Source: a virus (Duplodnaviria; Caudoviricetes). Taken from it: a stretch of 64,000 nucleotides of DNA. The stretch is from the IMG/VR virus record IMGVR_UViG_3300037721_000031, positions 192,001 through 256,000 of that record, one strand, 5' to 3'. The translations under genes and the position numbers were made by a program. Of this stretch, positions 36,985-47,169 are shown one piece after another. The notes under the pieces are model-generated. The model searched no databases. It saw only the letters and a program-made list of their open reading frames with translations, and was not told the DNA's origin. Numbering within the stretch: the first letter of the stretch is position 1; each line of letters opens with the position of its first letter.

Positions 36985-38193
36985 TTAAACTGCTGGAGAA
37001 GGATATTTAACAGCAGGGTGTGGATTATATCCCAATACTTGAAATTCACAATCGTTGATTCCAGACCAATCAGTATCATTACCTGTATTAGTAATCAGAA
37101 GTACTGGATACTGACGAGGAGTCCGTTCCATTTGTTCTTTAAACAACTCAATTTGATTAACATAAACATGTGCATCACCCACCACATGGATGAAATCACC
37201 AGGCATCATGTCTGTTTTAAGAGCAATGAGTTGAAGAAGAGCCGCATAGCTAGCGATGTTAAAGGGCGCGCCAAGGGGAGTGTCCATGCTGCGCTGGTAT
37301 AGTTGCATCGATAAACGCTTGAGTGGCAACCAATTACCAACGTAATCATCATCACTCACTAGTTCTTTAAAATTATGAAACTCTACAGAAACCTGTTGAT
37401 GAAGATTAGAGAAATGTGTTGTCTTCTTACTCTGATCATCTAGTTCGTCAAGAGACGCATTAGCGTCACGCATGCTTTCAAACTTAGCTTTGGCAACGTG
37501 AATATCGAAGTCAATCGCCTTAAGAATATTCTCGTAATTTGCAGTACGATTCTCAATAGCTTCTTTACGTGACATTTCTTCCACAAACAACTGAAAGAAT
37601 GTGTGACATGCAGCTAGAGCTTGACGACCATTAGCGGCATTCTGTTTCGGACTAACAGTCTCATCAGGTAATACAGAAGGAGCCCATGCAGACACAAGGT
37701 GACGACGTGAGAACGGACGAATCCTCAGGTCATTCAAGAGACCTTGTAACTGATCAATAGGTTTGTAACTAGGATCACTAACTAGCTGCATGATAACATC
37801 GTAAACGCCAGACCCAGTATTTACAGCTGACTGCATCGCGTTTTGCAATACATTAACTGGTACTCCATTCGGGAAACGACGCCAGATTTCACCGTAGATA
37901 GGACCACAATCGCCATTCTCAGCAGCCCATTCATCCCAGATATGAACGTTCTTATCAGTCAACGTCTTGATATTGGTTTCACCATTGATAAACCACTTGA
38001 GTTCTTCAAAGATACCACGGGTAAATACCTTCTTAGTAGTGATAAGAGGGAACTCACCCTTAGATAGGTTAAACCTCATCTGGTGACCAATAATACCTAC
38101 CGTATTAATGCCGGTACGATTTACCTTCAAGCGCCCGTCCTTCAAGATACGGCGGCCGAGTTCTTCGTACTGTGAATAGTTAGAGTTGTCCAT
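36985..38193 (-). CDS. thyA: Thymidylate synthase with insertions
   Basis: K.NRTG..T, PLITTKK, ELKWFI.G.TN, IWDEWA, GP.YG..WR, SRR..VSAW, LAACH, YQRS.D..LG.PFNIASY, GDAH.Y.N. Confidence 0.95.
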   Translation of the reverse strand: MDNSNYSQYEELGRRILKDGRLKVNRTGINTVGIIGHQMRFNLSKGEFPLITTKKVFTRGIFEELKWFINGETNIKTLTDKNVHIWDEWAAENGDCGPIYGEIWRRFPNGVPVNVLQNAMQSAVNTGSGVYDVIMQLVSDPSYKPIDQLQGLLNDLRIRPFSRRHLVSAWAPSVLPDETVSPKQNAANGRQALAACHTFFQLFVEEMSRKEAIENRTANYENILKAIDFDIHVAKAKFESMRDANASLDELDDQSKKTTHFSNLHQQVSVEFHNFKELVSDDDYVGNWLPLKRLSMQLYQRSMDTPLGAPFNIASYAALLQLIALKTDMMPGDFIHVVGDAHVYVNQIELFKEQMERTPRQYPVLLITNTGNDTDWSGINDCEFQVLGYNPHPAVKYPSPAV

Positions 38194-38210: not shown

Positions 38211-39338
38211 TTACTTAGTAGGTCTGAATGCTTCTAAGATATATTGATTAATGTTCTGCCGGAGTTGTTGTGTTCCACTGTACGTAATAGCAATATCAGT
38301 TAGTTCACTAACAATCCTAGCAATCTCATGATCTTTGAAATCTGTACGTGTCCTTACAACTGTTCCAGATACGTTTGGAATTAAATAGGTAACGCCACTA
38401 TAATTGACTTTCTCGGAATTTACTTCTTGCTCCTTACTCTGAATAGGTTTCTTATTAAAAGTCTCAGGAGTATTATTCTGAAGAAATTCACAATGCCCAC
38501 CGTAGGCTTTACTCCACTCGTTGTAAGCTGTACTTATTTCTTCATCTAATTGACTAAATGCACTCTCATCAGGCGTAATCAACCTATTATAAAGCCTGTC
38601 ACGTGAGAGACGTACTTCGTTCAACTTATTTGATAGCGACTCAAGAGTTTGTTCATACTGTCTACGACGAGAGAAGTATGTTTCCTCAAGAACCATACTC
38701 TCTACAAACTTATTACAGCTAGCTACCAGCTCATCAACTGTACCATTATTCTCAATAATGGTAACACGAGAAGAATCATCGGCTAGTCTAGTTACAGTAC
38801 GTTCAGACATACCTTTACTAATACGTTGCTTGATATCTGATTCTAGATTATCGAGATGATTAGCACCACTACGTGCGGAAATTCTACTGTTTGCAATGCT
38901 TTGATCAGCTCTAACATAGATCACGTGATCTGGATCAAAGCTTTTCAATATTTCTTTATGGATTGCTTTTACTTCTGAGAGCAATTGACGACCATATCCT
39001 TGATAGGCATAAGTGGAATCAATGAATCGATCTGTCAGGACAATCGCACCACGCTTCAAAGCAGGGATAATTACTTCATGAATGGTCTCATTATGAGAAG
39101 CTAAGAACAACAGGAGTTCTGAAGTAGGTTGTAATACATTGTTTAAAAGAATCTCTCTTAGCTTCTCACCAGTCGGTGTACCACCAGGTGCTCTAAAAGT
39201 TACCAGTTCGTGATGTGGAAACTTCTTCTTAATAGCATCTGCTACGATTTTCGTAGTATCGGTCTTCCCGCAGCCGTCTACACCTTCTACGGCCAAAAAC
39301 ACACCAGGGTATCTATTACCCTTAGACGTAATATTCAT
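38211..39338 (-). CDS. tmk: Thymidylate kinase with C-terminal extension
   Basis: EGVDGCGKT, PGGTP.GE.LR.ILL, E.LLF.A, DRFIDST.AYQG. Confidence 0.9.
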   Translation of the reverse strand: MNITSKGNRYPGVFLAVEGVDGCGKTDTTKIVADAIKKKFPHHELVTFRAPGGTPTGEKLREILLNNVLQPTSELLLFLASHNETIHEVIIPALKRGAIVLTDRFIDSTYAYQGYGRQLLSEVKAIHKEILKSFDPDHVIYVRADQSIANSRISARSGANHLDNLESDIKQRISKGMSERTVTRLADDSSRVTIIENNGTVDELVASCNKFVESMVLEETYFSRRRQYEQTLESLSNKLNEVRLSRDRLYNRLITPDESAFSQLDEEISTAYNEWSKAYGGHCEFLQNNTPETFNKKPIQSKEQEVNSEKVNYSGVTYLIPNVSGTVVRTRTDFKDHEIARIVSELTDIAITYSGTQQLRQNINQYILEAFRPTK

Positions 39339-41928: not shown

Positions 41929-42204
41929 TCAATGTATCAAAGAAGACCAGGCAATGAATTCAGCTTTCACAAGAGTCGCATGACTATCTTGTTCAGCAGC
42001 TTCCAAAGTTTCTAAGCATGCTAAAAGCCAGCCTAGAAATTGACCTAGAGTCAAACCTTTCATGTAACCTTTTACTGGGCGGGTACACCACAGTGCAGGG
42101 TACATCATGACTCCGGTATCAGTCCTGGTTTCCGTAAAATGGATAGCGCTCTTGTATTCTTCAGAATTTTTATCCAGATTAGAAATTCTTGAGGCAAGAT
42201 TCAT
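41929..42204 (-). CDS. Hypothetical protein
   Basis: 91-aa ORF, GAGGT upstream. Confidence 0.7.
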   Translation of the reverse strand: MNLASRISNLDKNSEEYKSAIHFTETRTDTGVMMYPALWCTRPVKGYMKGLTLGQFLGWLLACLETLEAAEQDSHATLVKAEFIAWSSLIH

Positions 42205-42252
42205 GATTCACCTCTTACTGTTAGAGTGCCTTGAGAGACTTTTTTGTATCTG

Positions 42253-42498
42253 TTACTTGGCTTCGCAAAGTTCCTTGCGTACGAGACGAACCGGCTCAGT
42301 GTCTGTGGCCGGAATACCGCACAGCTCCACCTGGAAGTTGGCCACGGTGATGGTCAGCATCTGGTAGGGGGCCGGCTTAGAAATGTTCAACCCGACTTGC
42401 TTCAGAGACTCTTGAGTCAAAGGTTCTGAGGCCTGGGTGGCGGACGTTGCCATGATGAGAGCGGCAACCATGGCGATGGACTTGGTGATGTTACGCAT
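42253..42498 (-). CDS. Small exported protein
   Basis: Signal peptide MRNITKSIAMVAALIMATSATQA; two Cys; GGAG upstream. Confidence 0.7.
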   Translation of the reverse strand: MRNITKSIAMVAALIMATSATQASEPLTQESLKQVGLNISKPAPYQMLTITVANFQVELCGIPATDTEPVRLVRKELCEAK

Positions 42499-42553
42499 GA
42501 TGATTCTCCAGATGAGGAAGTTGATGTTTCGTTGAGTGACAGGTAACGTTGGA

Positions 42554-42748
42554 TTAGCGCTTGTTCTTGGACGACTTACGACCCATCAGGGTTGCTGCTA
42601 CGGCGAAGACGACAACAGCGATCGCCACTGCACCGACACCGGCATAAATGCCGTTGATCGGGAGCTGGGTGTTCATGATCGACGTCTCACGAGGAGTAGC
42701 CGAACTGCAGAACATGCAAACGGACTGGGTGGTAGCTTGGGTGGTCAT
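42554..42748 (-). CDS. Single-TM small protein
   Basis: GIYAGVGAVAIAVVVFAVAATLM followed by GRKSSKNKR. Confidence 0.65.
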   Translation of the reverse strand: MTTQATTQSVCMFCSSATPRETSIMNTQLPINGIYAGVGAVAIAVVVFAVAATLMGRKSSKNKR

Positions 42749-42814
42749 TTGATTCTTTCAAGTGATTGATGACGGAGTGTAACTGGACGGACAAACAGAT
42801 AACCGACTACTGAA

Positions 42815-43096
42815 TTACAGCTTACGCACTACAGTAGCAGGACCATGAAATTTCTTCTCGAGCCAATTCATGAATGCCGAAGAAGTGATCTGGTGCATAC
42901 GCAGATTGCACCGCAACTCACGACCGGCTTTATTGGAAAGCTTTTCGAATTCACGGAAGTATTGGTCTGCGATATCTTTACGCATGTCGTATTGAGGCAG
43001 GTCTTTATATCGCTCTGCAAACTTACTTGAAGCATGTGCAAGTTTGTGAATATTAATCGCTTTTTTCACAAGTTTCTTGTAACGATGCATTCCCAT
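42815..43096 (-). CDS. Basic hypothetical protein
   Basis: 93-aa ORF, AAGGA upstream. Confidence 0.7.
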   Translation of the reverse strand: MGMHRYKKLVKKAINIHKLAHASSKFAERYKDLPQYDMRKDIADQYFREFEKLSNKAGRELRCNLRMHQITSSAFMNWLEKKFHGPATVVRKL

Positions 43097-43171
43097 AATG
43101 TTTCCTTTTCTGGTTGGATTAAGTGGTCATTATAGTTATTAGACTCTAATGACCACCAATGCATTGACGAA

Positions 43172-43780
43172 TCACTCTTCCTTGAAGGTAATCACTGGAG
43201 TGAGCTTCTTGACAGACGTGATCTTGCGATGGTAAGTATCTTCATGGTCGTTTGCTTCATGCTTGATACGCACAAAACGAATGACCTCGCCGCCACTTTC
43301 ATCAAGCACCATGTCGACGCCGGATGAACGGAGCTTCTCGTGCAGATGTTCCTTGGGCATGTGGCTGAAGCAATGTTCCCACGCTTCGAACATCATTGCT
43401 GTGATCGGTGACTGAACACCGTCGGAACGCCAGCAGCTATCGTGATTACTGGTATTCTTCCAGCTTTCCAACGGGATGTCCTTGAGCCCAAATGCCTTAC
43501 CATTCACAATGGCCAGGAACACACGGTGATCACCAGTAATCAAGAAGTGCATTTCCTTCCTGAAATGACGCTTCCACTCCGGACGACGGGTGCTGCCATC
43601 AATCTCATAGCCACTGTTTTCTGCCGACACCACCAATACCAGATGCAGAGCGACGCTGTAATCCTTCACGAAATCATTGTCAGCGTAGTAGCGCTTATCT
43701 TCCTTGCACAGCACCATGTTCTGACGACGCACTTGGTCGTAGATATTGGAAATGGCGTCGGCGAAGTTGTAGGAGATCAT
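43172..43780 (-). CDS. Hypothetical protein
   Basis: 202-aa ORF, AAAGGA upstream. Confidence 0.75.
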   Translation of the reverse strand: MISYNFADAISNIYDQVRRQNMVLCKEDKRYYADNDFVKDYSVALHLVLVVSAENSGYEIDGSTRRPEWKRHFRKEMHFLITGDHRVFLAIVNGKAFGLKDIPLESWKNTSNHDSCWRSDGVQSPITAMMFEAWEHCFSHMPKEHLHEKLRSSGVDMVLDESGGEVIRFVRIKHEANDHEDTYHRKITSVKKLTPVITFKEE

Positions 43781-43853
43781 AATCTATTTCCTTTGGAGTG
43801 GCATTAGTCACTCTTGTGTTAGAATGACTAATATGTCGTTGATGAGACCAGGC

Positions 43854-44360
43854 TTAGAACTTCCTGAATACTGTCAGATGTGCAACACCGTCGGTGTCCT
43901 TAGAGATCGGTGGCGTAATCAAGACATTCATGGTGTATTTCTTGTCCAAAGACTTTCTGATAATGAAACCACCCATAGGCGTGACCTCATAACCAGTCAC
44001 ACTACGGTATCCGGTTACAGCACCTGCAAACGCACCGTAGTGCTCAGAGAGCATCCACTCCCTGGCAATATACGCCGCCGGTTTACGATATGAATTGTAA
44101 TACATACCGGCAGACAGACCTTCCATCAAGCCAGAGTCCCAACGGTAGCCAAACCCTATGTTTAAGTTGTTATATCCAGGGATCTCACGAGTACGAACAG
44201 TCTTTCTTCCAGACGGGCTGACTGTTTCCGAAGTCTCAGTACTGTCACTGTTATGAGCAGAGTGCAGTGACACAGTGTGGATGATCAGTTCGTCTGCTTG
44301 AGCACTGACAGAGAAGCCAACGGCACACAAAAGAATAGCAATGATGCGAAACATTTTCAT
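43854..44360 (-). CDS. PagP-like outer-membrane beta-barrel protein
   Basis: Signal peptide; SLH, YNNLNIGFGY, MYYNSY, GAVTGY, TPP, C-terminal F; alternating hydrophobic strands. Confidence 0.6.
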   Translation of the reverse strand: MKMFRIIAILLCAVGFSVSAQADELIIHTVSLHSAHNSDSTETSETVSPSGRKTVRTREIPGYNNLNIGFGYRWDSGLMEGLSAGMYYNSYRKPAAYIAREWMLSEHYGAFAGAVTGYRSVTGYEVTPMGGFIIRKSLDKKYTMNVLITPPISKDTDGVAHLTVFRKF

Positions 44361-44488
44361 TCCTAAAGGTTGGGCACAACGTTACAAACTCTAGATAACA
44401 CTTACGATTATTTATCTAGAGTTTGTACTCAAGTTGATCTATTATTATCTAGATCAACTTGGGCTTATCTTACGTAATTATCAACAGA

Positions 44489-45103
44489 CTAGACGATTGG
44501 CTTCAAGCCAATATCGAAGAATCCTTCCAATTCAACCACAGTACCATCTTTCTTTTCCAACTTCATCGGGTTCACACAGACTTCCATCTGGAAGTCATCC
44601 TTCAAAAGCTTCACGACCTTTTCACAGAAGTCAGCCAAAGCCTTACTTTCCAGAAGCATGTCTTTCTTCTTCAAGTCGACAACACCCTTAAAAGCATTAC
44701 TGAGGAACATTGTGATGTCTTGATGCATCACCCAAACTTTGTCATCAGGAAGTGCTTCGATCTCAGCAACCGTCAGATTAGGAGCGACTTTCCAATTGGC
44801 AGAGTCATCCAACTGACCGTAACCTGCAGCCGGATACTGGTTGAACCATTGGCCAGATGCATGCTTCGAATTTTCTTCGGTGAAGATAAAGCCATCATGA
44901 TTCGTTTCATTCTCGGGATCTTGATCCCAAGCCACCTTGTGATGTTCCTTGCAGGTGAGTTTCTTGATCTCGATACCGTTAAGTGTATCGAGCCATGGCA
45001 GGTACACACTACCCCAGCGAGGTTCATTCCGAGTGAAGTTGATCCAGATGAAGAAGTACACAGCGCCAACAGTGTAACGCAGTTTTCTTTGAACTTGAGT
45101 CAT
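44489..45103 (-). CDS. Hypothetical phage protein
   Basis: 204-aa ORF, AAGGA upstream; WFNQYP..GYGQLDD segment. Confidence 0.8.
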   Translation of the reverse strand: MTQVQRKLRYTVGAVYFFIWINFTRNEPRWGSVYLPWLDTLNGIEIKKLTCKEHHKVAWDQDPENETNHDGFIFTEENSKHASGQWFNQYPAAGYGQLDDSANWKVAPNLTVAEIEALPDDKVWVMHQDITMFLSNAFKGVVDLKKKDMLLESKALADFCEKVVKLLKDDFQMEVCVNPMKLEKKDGTVVELEGFFDIGLKPIV

Positions 45104-45215
45104 AATGAGTCCTTTTGCGAAATGAAGTCAGTATCTATCGCAGACACTGACTGATTGATGATCACGGGATACTGATGTGTAAATTGACGACTACTGACTG
45201 ATCTCTTCTTGAGTA

Positions 45216-45476
45216 TCAGGTCATGAAGTTCTTGAACGCCGGGACACCGAGAGAATTCAGAGTCCGATACAATTCAGCAGCGTCGATGATGTTGTCGAAA
45301 TCGGCATAGACGGTATCTTGCTTCAGAGGAGCCGGATTGCTCTTACTTCTCGTAAAGTATTTTGCACATTCATTGTGCTTTTCGATCCAACTTTGATAAG
45401 TCGAGACCGTGAACTTCCGAACAGGTTGGTCACAGTCGATGTCATCGATTGCATCAGCAATGGGAATGTTAGTCAT
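45216..45476 (-). CDS. Stand-alone copy of the C-terminal domain of 13169..13927
   Basis: T.STY......K.FTR.K....V.ADFD.I.DA.ELY..L.....PAFKN. Confidence 0.8.
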   Translation of the reverse strand: MTNIPIADAIDDIDCDQPVRKFTVSTYQSWIEKHNECAKYFTRSKSNPAPLKQDTVYADFDNIIDAAELYRTLNSLGVPAFKNFMT

Positions 45477-45562
45477 GATTGATTTCCTTGATTACTTAGA
45501 TAATGGTTGAGAGCTACTTATGCCTAAACCATCACCGGTTAATAAATCGAGTATTTCCTTAC

Positions 45563-45982
45563 CTAGGTGCGGATGTCCCAGACGATCTCTTCTTCTGTCT
45601 GAACAGCATCCATTTCATTGAACACCTTACGGTAGCCTGGGACGTCCTTAAATTCATCCGGACACATCCCGAGCTCGAAGTCTGACTTATCGACAATCTT
45701 CACTTCTTCAAGGATCTTGTCGATTTCTTCAGATTCAGGACCAGTGAAGCCGCTGTCAAGATAGATACCAAGGCCAGTGTTGAAGCGAGGACGAATGTAC
45801 TTTTCGTTCTTGAGCACTCTCATAGCCGCTGTATCGACAATCAAAGCCTTTGCACGATCATCGACCATTTCGATTCCAGCGATTTCAGCCCCTTTCATGT
45901 AACAAACACGGCATTCGCCAATGACTTGATTGTTACGGATGAGTAGAGTTGCACGACCAGTAGTGGAAACTGCACGAAACAT
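45563..45982 (-). CDS. RDNQVIGEC-family protein 4 (start revised to MFRAV)
   Basis: LLIRNNQVIGEC; MVDDRAKALI; IRPRF; IVDK.DF; P..FKDVPGY; AGGA before 45982. Confidence 0.8.
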   Translation of the reverse strand: MFRAVSTTGRATLLIRNNQVIGECRVCYMKGAEIAGIEMVDDRAKALIVDTAAMRVLKNEKYIRPRFNTGLGIYLDSGFTGPESEEIDKILEEVKIVDKSDFELGMCPDEFKDVPGYRKVFNEMDAVQTEEEIVWDIRT

Positions 45983-46019
45983 GGTTTGTATTCCTAGTAT
46001 GATTTCAATTGATGAGTTT

Positions 46020-46346
46020 TCAACGCTTGAAACAGATATTGACTTCCAGTTCGAAATCTTCAATAACGACTGCTGGAGTTGCTTTCAGAACACTGATAAT
46101 CTTCTCCAACTCCTGAATGGCAACGGCCTTCTGAGAGGTACCTCTATACCCGAAATACTGAGGGCCTTCGAAATGATTATCGAAGGTAATGTCCTCATCC
46201 TTGAACAAGGCTTGAGTAGCTAGCAATGCGGTAACAGGGTTTGATTTTGCCAGCAGTTCCGGGTGCAGGTCACCATCGACGAGGACATCATAGTTCTTGC
46301 TTTCATCGTCGTACTGCAGTGAGAAAACCTTTTTCTCTTCGTTCAT
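46020..46346 (-). CDS. Hypothetical protein; N-terminus shared with 26328..26801
   Basis: LVDG.LHP.L; AGGAG upstream. Confidence 0.7.
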   Translation of the reverse strand: MNEEKKVFSLQYDDESKNYDVLVDGDLHPELLAKSNPVTALLATQALFKDEDITFDNHFEGPQYFGYRGTSQKAVAIQELEKIISVLKATPAVVIEDFELEVNICFKR

Positions 46347-46350
46347 GATC

Positions 46351-47169
46351 TTAACTCCTTACGTTATCCAAAGTGACGAACTTCGGACTGAATTGATTGA
46401 ACGGATTACCACACATTTCTGGGCGATAACCTGCCGGATTACTGACTACGAGTGTTCTTCCAAGACGAGTCTCTATTGAGTCATGGGTATGGCCAAACAC
46501 CCAGAGATCAGGTGAGTATCTTTGATTGAGAAGAAGATCACAGTCCGAAGCAAAACCGCCATTTTCATCTGCATCGAAACGACGAGGGCAAAGCTTGTAA
46601 CTGGGAAGATGATGAGTCATCACTACAGTTTGACCATTAAACGGATGCTGCAGGAACTTCTTCAGGCTTTTCTTTTGTTGTTTATGAATATCCATCATGT
46701 CAGAAACCTGAAAGAATCCACCGTTCTTCTTAATCGATCGAAAATCACCAATGCGCTGACCAATTACGTATTGTTCTTCAGGTGTTTTTCCGCCATCAGC
46801 CCACAGAGTACCATAGATGATTCTCCAGCCGGTCCAGTGCTCGCAGCTCATCTTTCCTGCACTAAATCTGACTTTTGCAGTCTCTGCTGCAATCCGAGCA
46901 GTCATGACAGAGTTCCACACATCGATGTCATGACCGTATGTCTCGTGATTGCCTGGTACAAGAAATACGGCTTGAAACCGATTCTCCAAGGCTTGTAGAA
47001 ACCCGATCAGTTGGTCGGGCTTCGAACTGATATCGCCCGCCAAAAGCAGAACTGATGACGAATCCCGCTCATCTTCCGGCACGAATTGACGGACCAATAC
47101 TTCTTCGTACTGTCCGTAGAATTGTTCCAAATGAAGATCAGAAACAATTCGTAAATAGACTGGTCTCAT
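46351..47169 (-). CDS. Calcineurin-like metallophosphoesterase
   Basis: SDLH, LAGDI, PGNHE, THHLP, FGHTH. Confidence 0.92.
   Translation of the reverse strand: MRPVYLRIVSDLHLEQFYGQYEEVLVRQFVPEDERDSSSVLLLAGDISSKPDQLIGFLQALENRFQAVFLVPGNHETYGHDIDVWNSVMTARIAAETAKVRFSAGKMSCEHWTGWRIIYGTLWADGGKTPEEQYVIGQRIGDFRSIKKNGGFFQVSDMMDIHKQQKKSLKKFLQHPFNGQTVVMTHHLPSYKLCPRRFDADENGGFASDCDLLLNQRYSPDLWVFGHTHDSIETRLGRTLVVSNPAGYRPEMCGNPFNQFSPKFVTLDNVRS

What the first reader, a model, noticed from the sequence alone, without database searches (positions are those of the whole stretch)
43854..44360. Phage-encoded PagP-like outer-membrane barrel: candidate lipid A modifier
Seen: cleavable signal, then HTVSLH / YNNLNIGFGY / AGMYYNSYRK...Y...W / AGAVTGY / TPM / ITPP / VAHLTVFRKF. 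These map in order onto PagP strands (GYAWH / YNE.PWG.G / AF.DS..K.EP..GY.W / TAG.TAR / P.P / YIPG / V.F.W.R.F), with His and Ser retained, Asp changed to Asn, and a terminal Phe BAM signal. Established: PagP acylates lipid A in the outer membrane. Inference: the phage remodels LPS or OM to block competitors or stabilise the infected cell.
Basis: partly seen in the sequence, partly recalled or inferred. Interest (0 to 1): 0.7.

Follow-up and report, generated by a model that had tools for sequence, protein, structure and literature searches.

The report
Phage PagP-like outer-membrane barrel enzyme
An uncultivated giant phage encodes a secreted outer-membrane barrel protein that is a real but distant relative of PagP, the bacterial enzyme that adds a fatty acid to lipid A; phage databases already label this family PagP, yet no member has been tested and the whole phage branch has changed one of the three catalytic residues.

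Summary
Window 43854-44360 (minus strand) is a real 168-aa gene with an AQA|D signal peptide, a confidently predicted 8-stranded barrel (pLDDT 93.5) and a terminal Phe.

The PagP reading is supported as homology:
- Pfam, NCBIfam and PDB sequence searches find nothing.
- PHROG 3600 ('PagP') matches it (E 1e-8). In the whole E. coli K-12 chromosome that PHROG matches only pagP.
- A 146-sequence family profile without signal peptide aligns to a diverse PagP profile at 96.8% probability (E 2e-10, 103 columns). The same query gives PagL 11%, OmpW 1.7% and OmpA 49%.

Family-invariant His33 and Ser90 fall on PagP His33 and Ser77. PagP Asp76 is Asn in 146/146 members. The N-terminal helix is absent, the strand F/G prolines are kept, and the strand A/B prolines are replaced by conserved His and Asn.

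Most likely it is an early-expressed outer-leaflet acyl-transfer enzyme acting on lipid A or another outer-membrane lipid. Activity, acceptor and benefit to the phage are untested.

RefSeq already labels relatives in many Vibrio phages as PagP, and first-stage notes of this scan flag similar Asn-Ser barrels in other genomes. It is therefore a new, divergent member of a catalogued but uncharacterised kind. Interest is moderate.

The parts
43854..44360 (-). CDS of the PagP-like protein (168 aa including stop codon 43854-43856). The probable real start is M3, at 44354.
44295..44360 (-). Signal peptide, residues 1-22, with cleavage motif A-Q-A|D.
   Evidence: Read from the sequence. Helix 2-20 in the model. 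A22 is conserved in 131/146 members and A20 in 93/146.
43857..44294 (-). Mature 8-stranded outer-membrane beta-barrel, residues 23-168, ending in Phe168 (BAM beta-signal).
44262..44264 (-). His33 codon, at the extracellular end of strand A. It aligns with the catalytic His33 of PagP.
   Evidence: 146/146 conserved. Alignments.
44091..44096 (-). Asn89-Ser90 codons, at the extracellular end of strand C. They align with PagP Asp76-Ser77.
   Evidence: Asn in 146/146; Ser in 144/146, with 2 Thr. Alignments.
44184..44252 (-). Loop L1 beta-hairpin insertion, residues 37-59. It is variable and absent from about two thirds of the family and from bacterial PagP.
   Evidence: Strands 40-47 and 53-60. Gap counts. 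Alignment.
44007..44012 (-). Gly117-Tyr118 codons, at the extracellular end of strand E. Tyr118 is invariant and falls in the column of the invariant Arg of the bacterial PagP 'T-A-R' motif.
   Evidence: MAFFT column; low alignment confidence
43908..43913 (-). Pro150-Pro151 codons, at the extracellular end of strand G. Pro150 aligns with PagP Pro144 (YIPG).
   Evidence: 143/146 conserved. Alignments.
44383..44461 (.). Two perfect hairpins in the intergenic region just upstream of the gene. One has 16-nt arms and a 13-nt loop, the other 12-nt arms and an 8-nt loop, and they share TCTAGATAA. They are either the terminator of the upstream gene or a regulatory element.

Best explanation
The gene encodes a Sec-exported protein that BAM inserts into the host outer membrane as an 8-stranded beta-barrel. 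It belongs to a large, mostly phage-borne branch of the PagP superfamily.

Its invariant polar residues (His33, Asn64, Asn67, Asn89-Ser90, Tyr118, Pro150) all sit at the extracellular ends of the strands, at the level of the outer leaflet. The most likely mechanism is PagP-like. An acyl chain of a phospholipid that has strayed into the outer leaflet enters the barrel laterally between strands F and G. It is then transferred, with His33 and Ser90, to lipid A or another outer-membrane lipid, or to water.

The gene is probably expressed early in infection and conditions the envelope.

What is shown: export signal, fold, homology to PagP, conservation and position of the putative active site.

What is inferred: catalysis, donor, acceptor, timing and benefit.
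For: Fold and export:
- AF2 gives pLDDT 93.5 with 8 barrel strands plus an L1 hairpin.
- The best named ESM-Atlas neighbour is a PF07017 cluster, by structure and by language-model features (0.95, 184 shared features).

Homology:
- PHROG 3600 ('PagP') is hit by this protein at E 1.1e-8, by relatives down to 3.7e-17, and by E. coli PagP at 1.3e-6.
- In the six-frame E. coli K-12 chromosome that PHROG matches only pagP.
- hhalign of the mature 146-sequence family profile against a diverse PagP alignment gives 96.8% probability, E 2.2e-10, 103 columns. The same query gives PagL 11%, OmpW 1.7% and OmpA-TM 48.6% (C-terminal 48 columns only).
- The family HMM scores 36.2 and 29.8 bits, full length, on two helix-less bacterial ORFs (L105, L107). 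Both pass Pfam's PagP cut-off.

Active site:
- Conservation is His33 146/146, Asn89 146/146, Ser90 144/146 and Tyr118 146/146 among representatives clustered at 50% identity.
- These align with PagP His33 and Asp76-Ser77. Those are the residues named as important for PagP function in PMC5740924.
- The missing N-terminal helix is no obstacle, because it is dispensable for PagP folding and activity (PMC2887491).

Context:
- Here the gene sits among nucleotide-metabolism genes.
- In Vibrio phage phi 3 it also sits among nucleotide-metabolism genes.
- In a temperate phage it sits in the recombination and early region.
Against: - Pfam's PagP model does not match this protein or any of 64 relatives. 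A PDB sequence-profile search does not find PagP.
- One of PagP's three essential residues, Asp76, is Asn in every member.
- The two prolines that open the strand A/B side of PagP are replaced by His28 and Asn67. From my own recall of Khan & Bishop 2009, that side is the lipid A side, so lipid A may not be the acceptor.
- With other hhalign settings and a shallow enterobacterial PagP alignment, the probability was only 20-76%.
- No member of the phage branch has been assayed (PMC10269572; bioRxiv 10.64898/2026.09.21.753358).
- The host is unknown.
Confidence: 0.55

Rival explanations
1. It is a hydrolase rather than a transferase: an outer-membrane phospholipase or lipid deacylase. The His / Asn-Ser site would work like the Ser-His-Asn triad of OMPLA (own knowledge: Ser144-His142-Asn156). 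It would remove mislocalised phospholipids, or an acyl chain of lipid A, during infection.
For: - Asn replaces Asp in 146/146 members.
- The conserved strand A/B prolines of PagP are lost.
- PagP itself hydrolyses p-nitrophenyl palmitate (PMC2887491, PMC6626846).
- Language-model neighbours include many PagL (deacylase) clusters, 56 of 100 hits.
Against: - There is no sequence or profile similarity to PagL (11%) or to OMPLA.
- Asn89 is adjacent to Ser90, so it cannot sit as in a classical triad.
- The donor-side features of PagP, Pro128 and Pro150, are kept. That fits a transferase as well as a hydrolase.
Confidence: 0.15
2. It is a PagP-derived barrel that has lost catalysis and serves as a surface protein. 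It would mask a receptor, exclude superinfecting phages or bind something through its L1 hairpin, like phage lambda Lom or other phage outer-membrane morons.
For: - The catalytic Asp is lost.
- The extracellular L1 hairpin is variable and lineage-specific.
- Phage-encoded outer-membrane barrels with non-enzymatic roles exist (own knowledge: Lom).
- An Atlas viral cluster of OMP_b-brl barrels is also a structural neighbour.
Against: - His33, Asn89, Ser90 and Tyr118 are absolutely invariant across 146 representatives clustered at 50% identity, while the loops vary. That is the pattern of an active or ligand site, not of a surface-variable adhesin.
- About two thirds of the members lack the hairpin altogether.
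Confidence: 0.2
3. It is a generic small outer-membrane barrel unrelated to PagP. The motif matches would then be convergence or chance among beta-barrels.
For: - Pfam and PDB sequence searches are negative.
Against: - The profile-profile score to PagP is six orders of magnitude better than to PagL, OmpW or OmpA.
- PHROG 3600 links the two and matches nothing else in E. coli K-12.
- The family HMM gives full-length matches to Pfam-positive PagP-like ORFs.
- The family-invariant residues coincide with PagP's catalytic positions.
Confidence: 0.05

Closest known systems
PagP, lipid A palmitoyltransferase of Enterobacteriaceae, Bordetella and Legionella (Pfam PF07017; PDB 1THQ, 3GP6, 1MM4)
   Same: - Both have a signal peptide, an 8-stranded outer-membrane barrel and a terminal Phe.
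- The order of conserved blocks is the same.
- His at the top of strand A and Ser at the top of strand C are kept.
- The Y-N-[NE]-x-x-x-G block on strand B is kept.
- The prolines on strands F and G are kept.
   Different: - It falls below Pfam's threshold.
- There is no N-terminal amphipathic helix.
- Asp76 is Asn in all members.
- Pro28 and Pro50 are replaced by His and Asn.
- The invariant Arg of the PagP T-A-R motif aligns with an invariant Tyr.
- This lineage has an extra beta-hairpin in loop L1.
- The family is carried by phages (jumbo, T5-like, temperate), and was found in only 3 of 401 sampled Pseudomonadota genomes against 16 of 401 for PagP.
PHROG 3600 and the RefSeq 'antimicrobial peptide resistance and lipid A acylation protein PagP' of phages (for example Vibrio phage phi 3 gp031, YP_009207496; JSF10, River4 and others)
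   Same: It is the same family. This protein hits the PHROG at E 1e-8. The phi 3 protein shows the same H ... YNNLN ... ENSY ... SGY ... VPT ... F motifs, including Asn-Ser. It also lies in an early, nucleotide-metabolism region.
   Different: - The window's protein is very divergent: tblastn finds no match in 50,697 phage records.
- It carries the L1 hairpin.
- It sits in a phiKZ-like jumbo phage.
- None of these annotated proteins has been tested experimentally.
Helix-less bacterial PagP-like ORFs that pass Pfam's PagP cut-off (loci L105 and L107 from unnamed Pseudomonadota genomes)
   Same: They have a signal peptide followed directly by strand A (SELHLIVNGKAYH, compare ADELIIHTVSLH), then YNEKNYGIGF, then YIPQ. 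The family HMM matches them over their full length at 36 and 30 bits.
   Different: They keep Asp-Ser (FKDSN) and the Arg of T-R-K-D. They have no L1 hairpin.
OMPLA (PldA) and PagL, the other outer-membrane lipid enzymes
   Same: They work alike in being barrel enzymes with a His/Ser site at the outer leaflet. OMPLA uses Ser-His-Asn (own knowledge), which shows that Asn is compatible with lipid ester chemistry in the outer membrane.
   Different: There is no detectable homology: PagL scores 11% in hhalign. OMPLA is a 12-stranded dimer. The catalytic residues lie on different strands.

Membership tests
PagP (PF07017) | Signal peptide, 8-stranded antiparallel outer-membrane beta-barrel, C-terminal aromatic beta-signal | tested here: met
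PagP (PF07017) | Match to the Pfam PagP model above its gathering score | tested here: not met
   No hit for P0001 at E<=10, none for 64 relatives at E<=0.01, and none in the phage genome.
PagP (PF07017) | Profile-profile homology that is specific to PagP among small outer-membrane barrels | tested here: met
   hhalign gives 96.8%, E 2.2e-10 and 103 columns to PagP. The same query gives PagL 11%, OmpW 1.7% and OmpA 48.6%. The family HMM scores 36.2 and 29.8 bits on the Pfam-positive ORFs L105 and L107.
PagP (PF07017) | Catalytic His33 at the end of strand A / loop L1 | tested here: met
   His33 is conserved in 146/146 members and aligned to the PagP His.
PagP (PF07017) | Catalytic Ser77 in loop L2 | tested here: met
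   Ser90 is conserved in 144/146 members (2 Thr) and aligned to the PagP Ser.
PagP (PF07017) | Catalytic Asp76 in loop L2 | tested here: not met
   Asn89 in 146/146 members, and no member has Asp. Bacterial PagP and the helix-less PagP-like ORFs all have Asp.
PagP (PF07017) | N-terminal amphipathic alpha-helix (about 19 residues) before the barrel | tested here: not met
   The mature protein starts one residue before strand A. The helix is dispensable for folding and activity in E. coli PagP (PMC2887491).
PagP (PF07017) | Prolines on strands F and G (Pro127, Pro144) that open the lateral route for the phospholipid acyl chain (feature recalled from the literature, not read here) | tested here: met
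   Pro128 is conserved in 99/146 members and Pro150 in 143/146. Both align to the PagP prolines.
PagP (PF07017) | Prolines on strands A and B (Pro28, Pro50) that open the second lateral gap (feature recalled from the literature, not read here) | tested here: not met
   The aligned positions are His28 (124/146) and Asn67 (138/146).
PagP (PF07017) | Interior hydrophobic pocket (hydrocarbon ruler, floor at Gly88) | not testable with these tools
   The model coordinates cannot be inspected. The aligned position is Glu101, which is variable, in a low-confidence part of the alignment.
PagP (PF07017) | Transfer of palmitate from phospholipid to lipid A | not testable with these tools
   This needs biochemistry.
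PHROG 3600 (phage 'PagP') | Significant match to the PHROG profile | tested here: met
   E 1.1e-8 over residues 3-130 and E 7.3e-10 in the genome search. Relatives score from 4e-6 down to 4e-17.
PagL (PF09411, lipid A 3-O-deacylase) | Pfam match and a His-x-Ser motif on a C-terminal strand with a Glu partner | tested here: not met
OmpA/OmpX/Ail/Lom-type structural barrels (PF01389, PF13505) | Pfam match; no conserved polar site at the extracellular rim | tested here: not met
   No Pfam hit. hhalign to OmpA-TM gives 48.6% over the last 48 columns only. The family has an invariant His/Asn-Ser/Tyr rim.

The most novel reading that the evidence does not exclude
The phage 'Asn-Ser' branch may not be a lipid A palmitoyltransferase at all. 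It could be a distinct outer-membrane lipid enzyme that lytic and temperate phages deploy early in infection. It would keep PagP's donor side (the barrel pocket and strand F/G prolines) but carry a rebuilt acceptor side (His28, Asn67, Asn89, Tyr118). That site might acylate a different acceptor or hydrolyse outer-leaflet phospholipids. If so, phages actively edit outer-membrane lipid asymmetry to keep the envelope intact until lysis or to exclude rivals.
Probability: 0.3. Interest if true: 0.65.

Novelty: new member of a known kind. Interest (0 to 1): 0.4.

Why it matters
If active, the family would show that phages of very different types rewrite the lipid layer of the host outer membrane during infection. 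The types seen here are a phiKZ-like jumbo phage, T5-like Vibrio phages and temperate phages. Such rewriting has been proposed from annotation but never shown.

The family is large, with 903 cluster representatives. Its putative active site is sharply defined and differs from PagP's at one catalytic residue. Simple mutants in a laboratory strain could therefore settle whether 'PagP' is the right label for the many phage genes that carry it.

For this window the result is mainly a solid annotation of one gene.

Tried and rejected
Searches that found nothing:
- Megablast of 42000-46500 and tblastn of P0001 against 50,697 phage records gave no match. tblastn of P0015 also gave none.
- Pfam and NCBIfam on P0001 and on 64 relatives gave nothing meaningful.
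- PDB sequence-profile searches with 5 or 64 sequences returned only chance hits at E>=1.
- The 64-sequence profile did not find pagP in E. coli K-12; its only hit was a chance one at E 1.5. It found nothing in two other enterobacterial genomes.
With the 5 close sequences it found nothing in IMG/VR.
- The genome-contig scan with enterobacterial PagP returned only close PagPs and added no diversity.

Weak or non-discriminating results:
- The first hhalign against a shallow enterobacterial PagP alignment was borderline (76%, or 20% with -M first). It was superseded by the diverse alignment.
- Neighbouring genes gave no lipid- or envelope-related partner.

Other:
- Sequencing runs: no RNA holder is listed.
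- Several PagP structure papers could not be read because they are not held. The roles of the strand A/B and F/G prolines, and the OMPLA triad, therefore rest on my own recall.
- I considered and rejected PagL, OmpW, OmpA/OmpX/Lom membership, and a 10-stranded barrel. The two extra strands lie in loop L1 and are missing in most relatives.

Full report
**The gene.** The finding's coordinates hold one clear ORF on the minus strand, 43854-44360, of 168 aa. It begins with a typical Sec signal: a hydrophobic core, then A20-Q21-A22|D23. It ends in ...VFRKF. AGGA lies 6 nt before the third codon, and the 98%-identical metagenomic homologue P0002 starts at that Met, so the real start is probably M3. 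The overlapping plus-strand ORFs are short and have no support.

**The genome.** The window is part of a 266.6-kb, 98%-complete IMG/VR virus record. Its structural genes match phiKZ-like jumbo phages, and the nearest cultured relatives are Ralstonia phages RP12 and RP31 at 42% identity. The gene lies in a minus-strand block between a metallophosphoesterase and thymidylate kinase/synthase. A 52%-identical copy lies between the same landmark genes in a related phage contig, L002, though farther from the phosphoesterase there.

**Is it real, and how big is the family?** The word-based search found only 4 relatives. An exhaustive profile search found 903 cluster representatives at E<=1e-3 and 119 at E<=1e-10. 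No Pfam or NCBIfam model matches this protein or 64 relatives. PHROG 3600 does match, at E 1.1e-8; its label is 'antimicrobial peptide resistance and lipid A acylation protein PagP'.

Members occur in several phage types:
- a temperate phage, in its early region next to RecT, a DNA methylase and an integrase;
- another small-gene phage;
- T5-like and other Vibrio phages, where RefSeq already names the protein PagP (64 records).

The family is rare in bacterial genomes. It was found in 3 of 401 sampled Pseudomonadota genomes, against 16 of 401 for Pfam PagP. All three bacterial copies carry Asn-Ser.

**Structure.** With a 64-sequence alignment, AlphaFold2 gives pLDDT 93.5. The model has a signal helix at 2-20 and then ten strands. 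Eight of them correspond one to one with PagP strands A-H: 24-33, 66-73, 82-88, 94-103, 108-116, 126-137, 142-149 and 159-167. The other two, 40-47 and 53-60, form a hairpin inside loop L1. About two thirds of the family lack that hairpin.

- Foldseek's top PDB hit is PagP 3gp6 (E 6e-4).
- In the representative-only search, where PagP is represented by an NMR model, OmpA-type barrels and PagL score higher.

The fold therefore says 'small outer-membrane barrel' and no more. ESM-Atlas neighbours are viral hypothetical clusters first, then a PF07017 cluster as the best named family. This holds both by shape and by language-model features.

**Homology to PagP.**
- A first profile-profile comparison with 18 enterobacterial PagPs was borderline: 76% probability, or 20% with other settings.
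- E. coli PagP itself hits PHROG 3600 at E 1.3e-6. In the six-frame E. coli K-12 chromosome that PHROG matches pagP and nothing else.
- I then sampled PF07017 in 401 Pseudomonadota genomes and recovered divergent PagPs. Among them are helix-less ORFs (L105, L107) that pass Pfam's cut-off. They begin 'ASELHLIVNGKAYHF...YNEKNYGIGF...FKDSN...YIPQ'.
- The phage-family HMM matches these ORFs over their full length at 36.2 and 29.8 bits.
- With the diverse PagP alignment, and with the family's signal peptide removed, hhalign gives 96.8% probability, E 2.2e-10 and 103 columns.
- The same query against alignments built in the same way gives PagL 11%, OmpW 1.7% and OmpA 48.6% (last 48 columns only).

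I conclude that the family is a true, distant branch of the PagP superfamily.

**The active site.** Across 146 representatives clustered at 50% identity, the following residues are conserved:

| Residue | Conserved in |
|---|---|
| His33 | 146/146 |
| Gly69 | 146/146 |
| Asn89 | 146/146 |
| Tyr118 | 146/146 |
| Gly85 | 145/146 |
| Ser90 | 144/146 (2 Thr) |
| Gly117 | 144/146 |
| Pro150 | 143/146 |
| Asn64 | 139/146 |
| Asn67 | 138/146 |
| Tyr97 | 138/146 |
| Tyr87 | 136/146 |

Outer-membrane barrels have both termini in the periplasm. Given that rule and the strand limits of the model, His33, Asn64, Asn67, Asn89-Ser90, Gly117-Tyr118 and Pro150 lie at or just beyond the extracellular ends of their strands, that is, at the outer leaflet.

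In every alignment the following correspondences hold:
- His33 falls on PagP His33.
- Asn89-Ser90 falls on Asp76-Ser77. These three PagP residues are the ones described as important for enzymatic function (PMC5740924), and the active site is placed in extracellular loop 2 (PMC6626846).
- Pro128 and Pro150 fall on PagP Pro127 and Pro144.
- PagP Pro28 and Pro50 correspond to conserved His28 and Asn67.
- The invariant Arg of the PagP 'T-A-R' motif corresponds to invariant Tyr118. This last column comes from MAFFT only and has low confidence.

The N-terminal amphipathic helix of PagP is absent, but it is dispensable for folding and catalysis (PMC2887491).

**Mechanism.**
- Shown: export signal, barrel, homology, and an invariant polar cluster at the outer-leaflet rim on the PagP catalytic positions.
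- Inferred: the protein is an enzyme that takes an acyl chain from an outer-leaflet phospholipid into the barrel through the strand F/G side. From my own recall of the PagP literature this is the donor route, and its prolines are kept. The chain would then be passed to an acceptor.
- The acceptor is uncertain. The Asp-to-Asn change and the rebuilt strand A/B side, which I recall as the lipid A side, leave three options: lipid A at the same or another position, phosphatidylglycerol, or water.
- I recall that OMPLA uses a Ser-His-Asn triad, so Asn is not incompatible with lipid ester chemistry.
- In three unrelated phage types the gene sits in early, DNA- or nucleotide-metabolism regions. That position suggests early expression and a role in conditioning the envelope or in exclusion, but this is inference only.

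**Comparison and novelty.** Phage papers already mention 'PagP-like' morons from annotation and give no tests (PMC10269572; bioRxiv 10.64898/2026.09.21.753358). PHROGs and RefSeq use the PagP label. First-stage notes of this scan list similar Asn-Ser barrels in other phage genomes.

What is added here:
- a controlled demonstration of the homology;
- the family-wide Asn-for-Asp signature, together with the loss of the helix and of the strand A/B prolines;
- the presence of a very divergent copy with an L1 hairpin in a phiKZ-like jumbo phage.

I file it as a new member of a catalogued but uncharacterised kind. There is a real chance, about 0.3, that the branch has a function different from lipid A palmitoylation.

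Noticed in passing
window 44383-44461: Two adjacent perfect hairpins lie between the upstream gene and the PagP-like gene. One has 16-nt arms and a 13-nt loop, the other 12-nt arms and an 8-nt loop. They share the word TCTAGATAA/TTATCTAGA, which occurs only 4 times in the window, 3 of them here. They could be a terminator or an operator.
   Followed up: partly
window 38211-39338 (-): The thymidylate kinase ORF is 375 aa. The kinase domain covers only about residues 10-240. The last 45 or so residues match several small PHROGs of unknown function, which suggests a fused C-terminal module.
   Followed up: no
window 36985-38193 (-): The thymidylate synthase is 402 aa and matches a 335-position profile end to end, so it carries about 100 residues of insertion.
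   Followed up: no
window 46351-47169 (-); L009 225-968: A calcineurin-like metallophosphoesterase lies four genes upstream of the PagP-like gene in this jumbo phage and also in T5-like Vibrio phage phi 3. In the related contig L002 it is 8 kb away, so the linkage is probably loose.
   Followed up: partly
window 42554-42748 (-): A 64-aa ORF with one hydrophobic transmembrane-like segment and a basic C-terminus lies two genes downstream of the PagP-like gene. It may be a small membrane protein.
   Followed up: no
L105 (G185:C79), L107 (G353:C3), L106, L108: Small-genome Pseudomonadota (1.6-2.8 Mb) carry helix-less PagP-like ORFs that pass Pfam's PagP cut-off with low scores (39-49 bits). They look like sequence intermediates between classical PagP and the phage branch. 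Their organisms and contexts were not examined.
   Followed up: partly
L200, L201, L202 (unnamed Pseudomonadota genomes): Three bacterial genome copies of the Asn-Ser branch have long, low-complexity linkers between the signal peptide and the barrel. Whether they lie in prophages was not checked.
   Followed up: no
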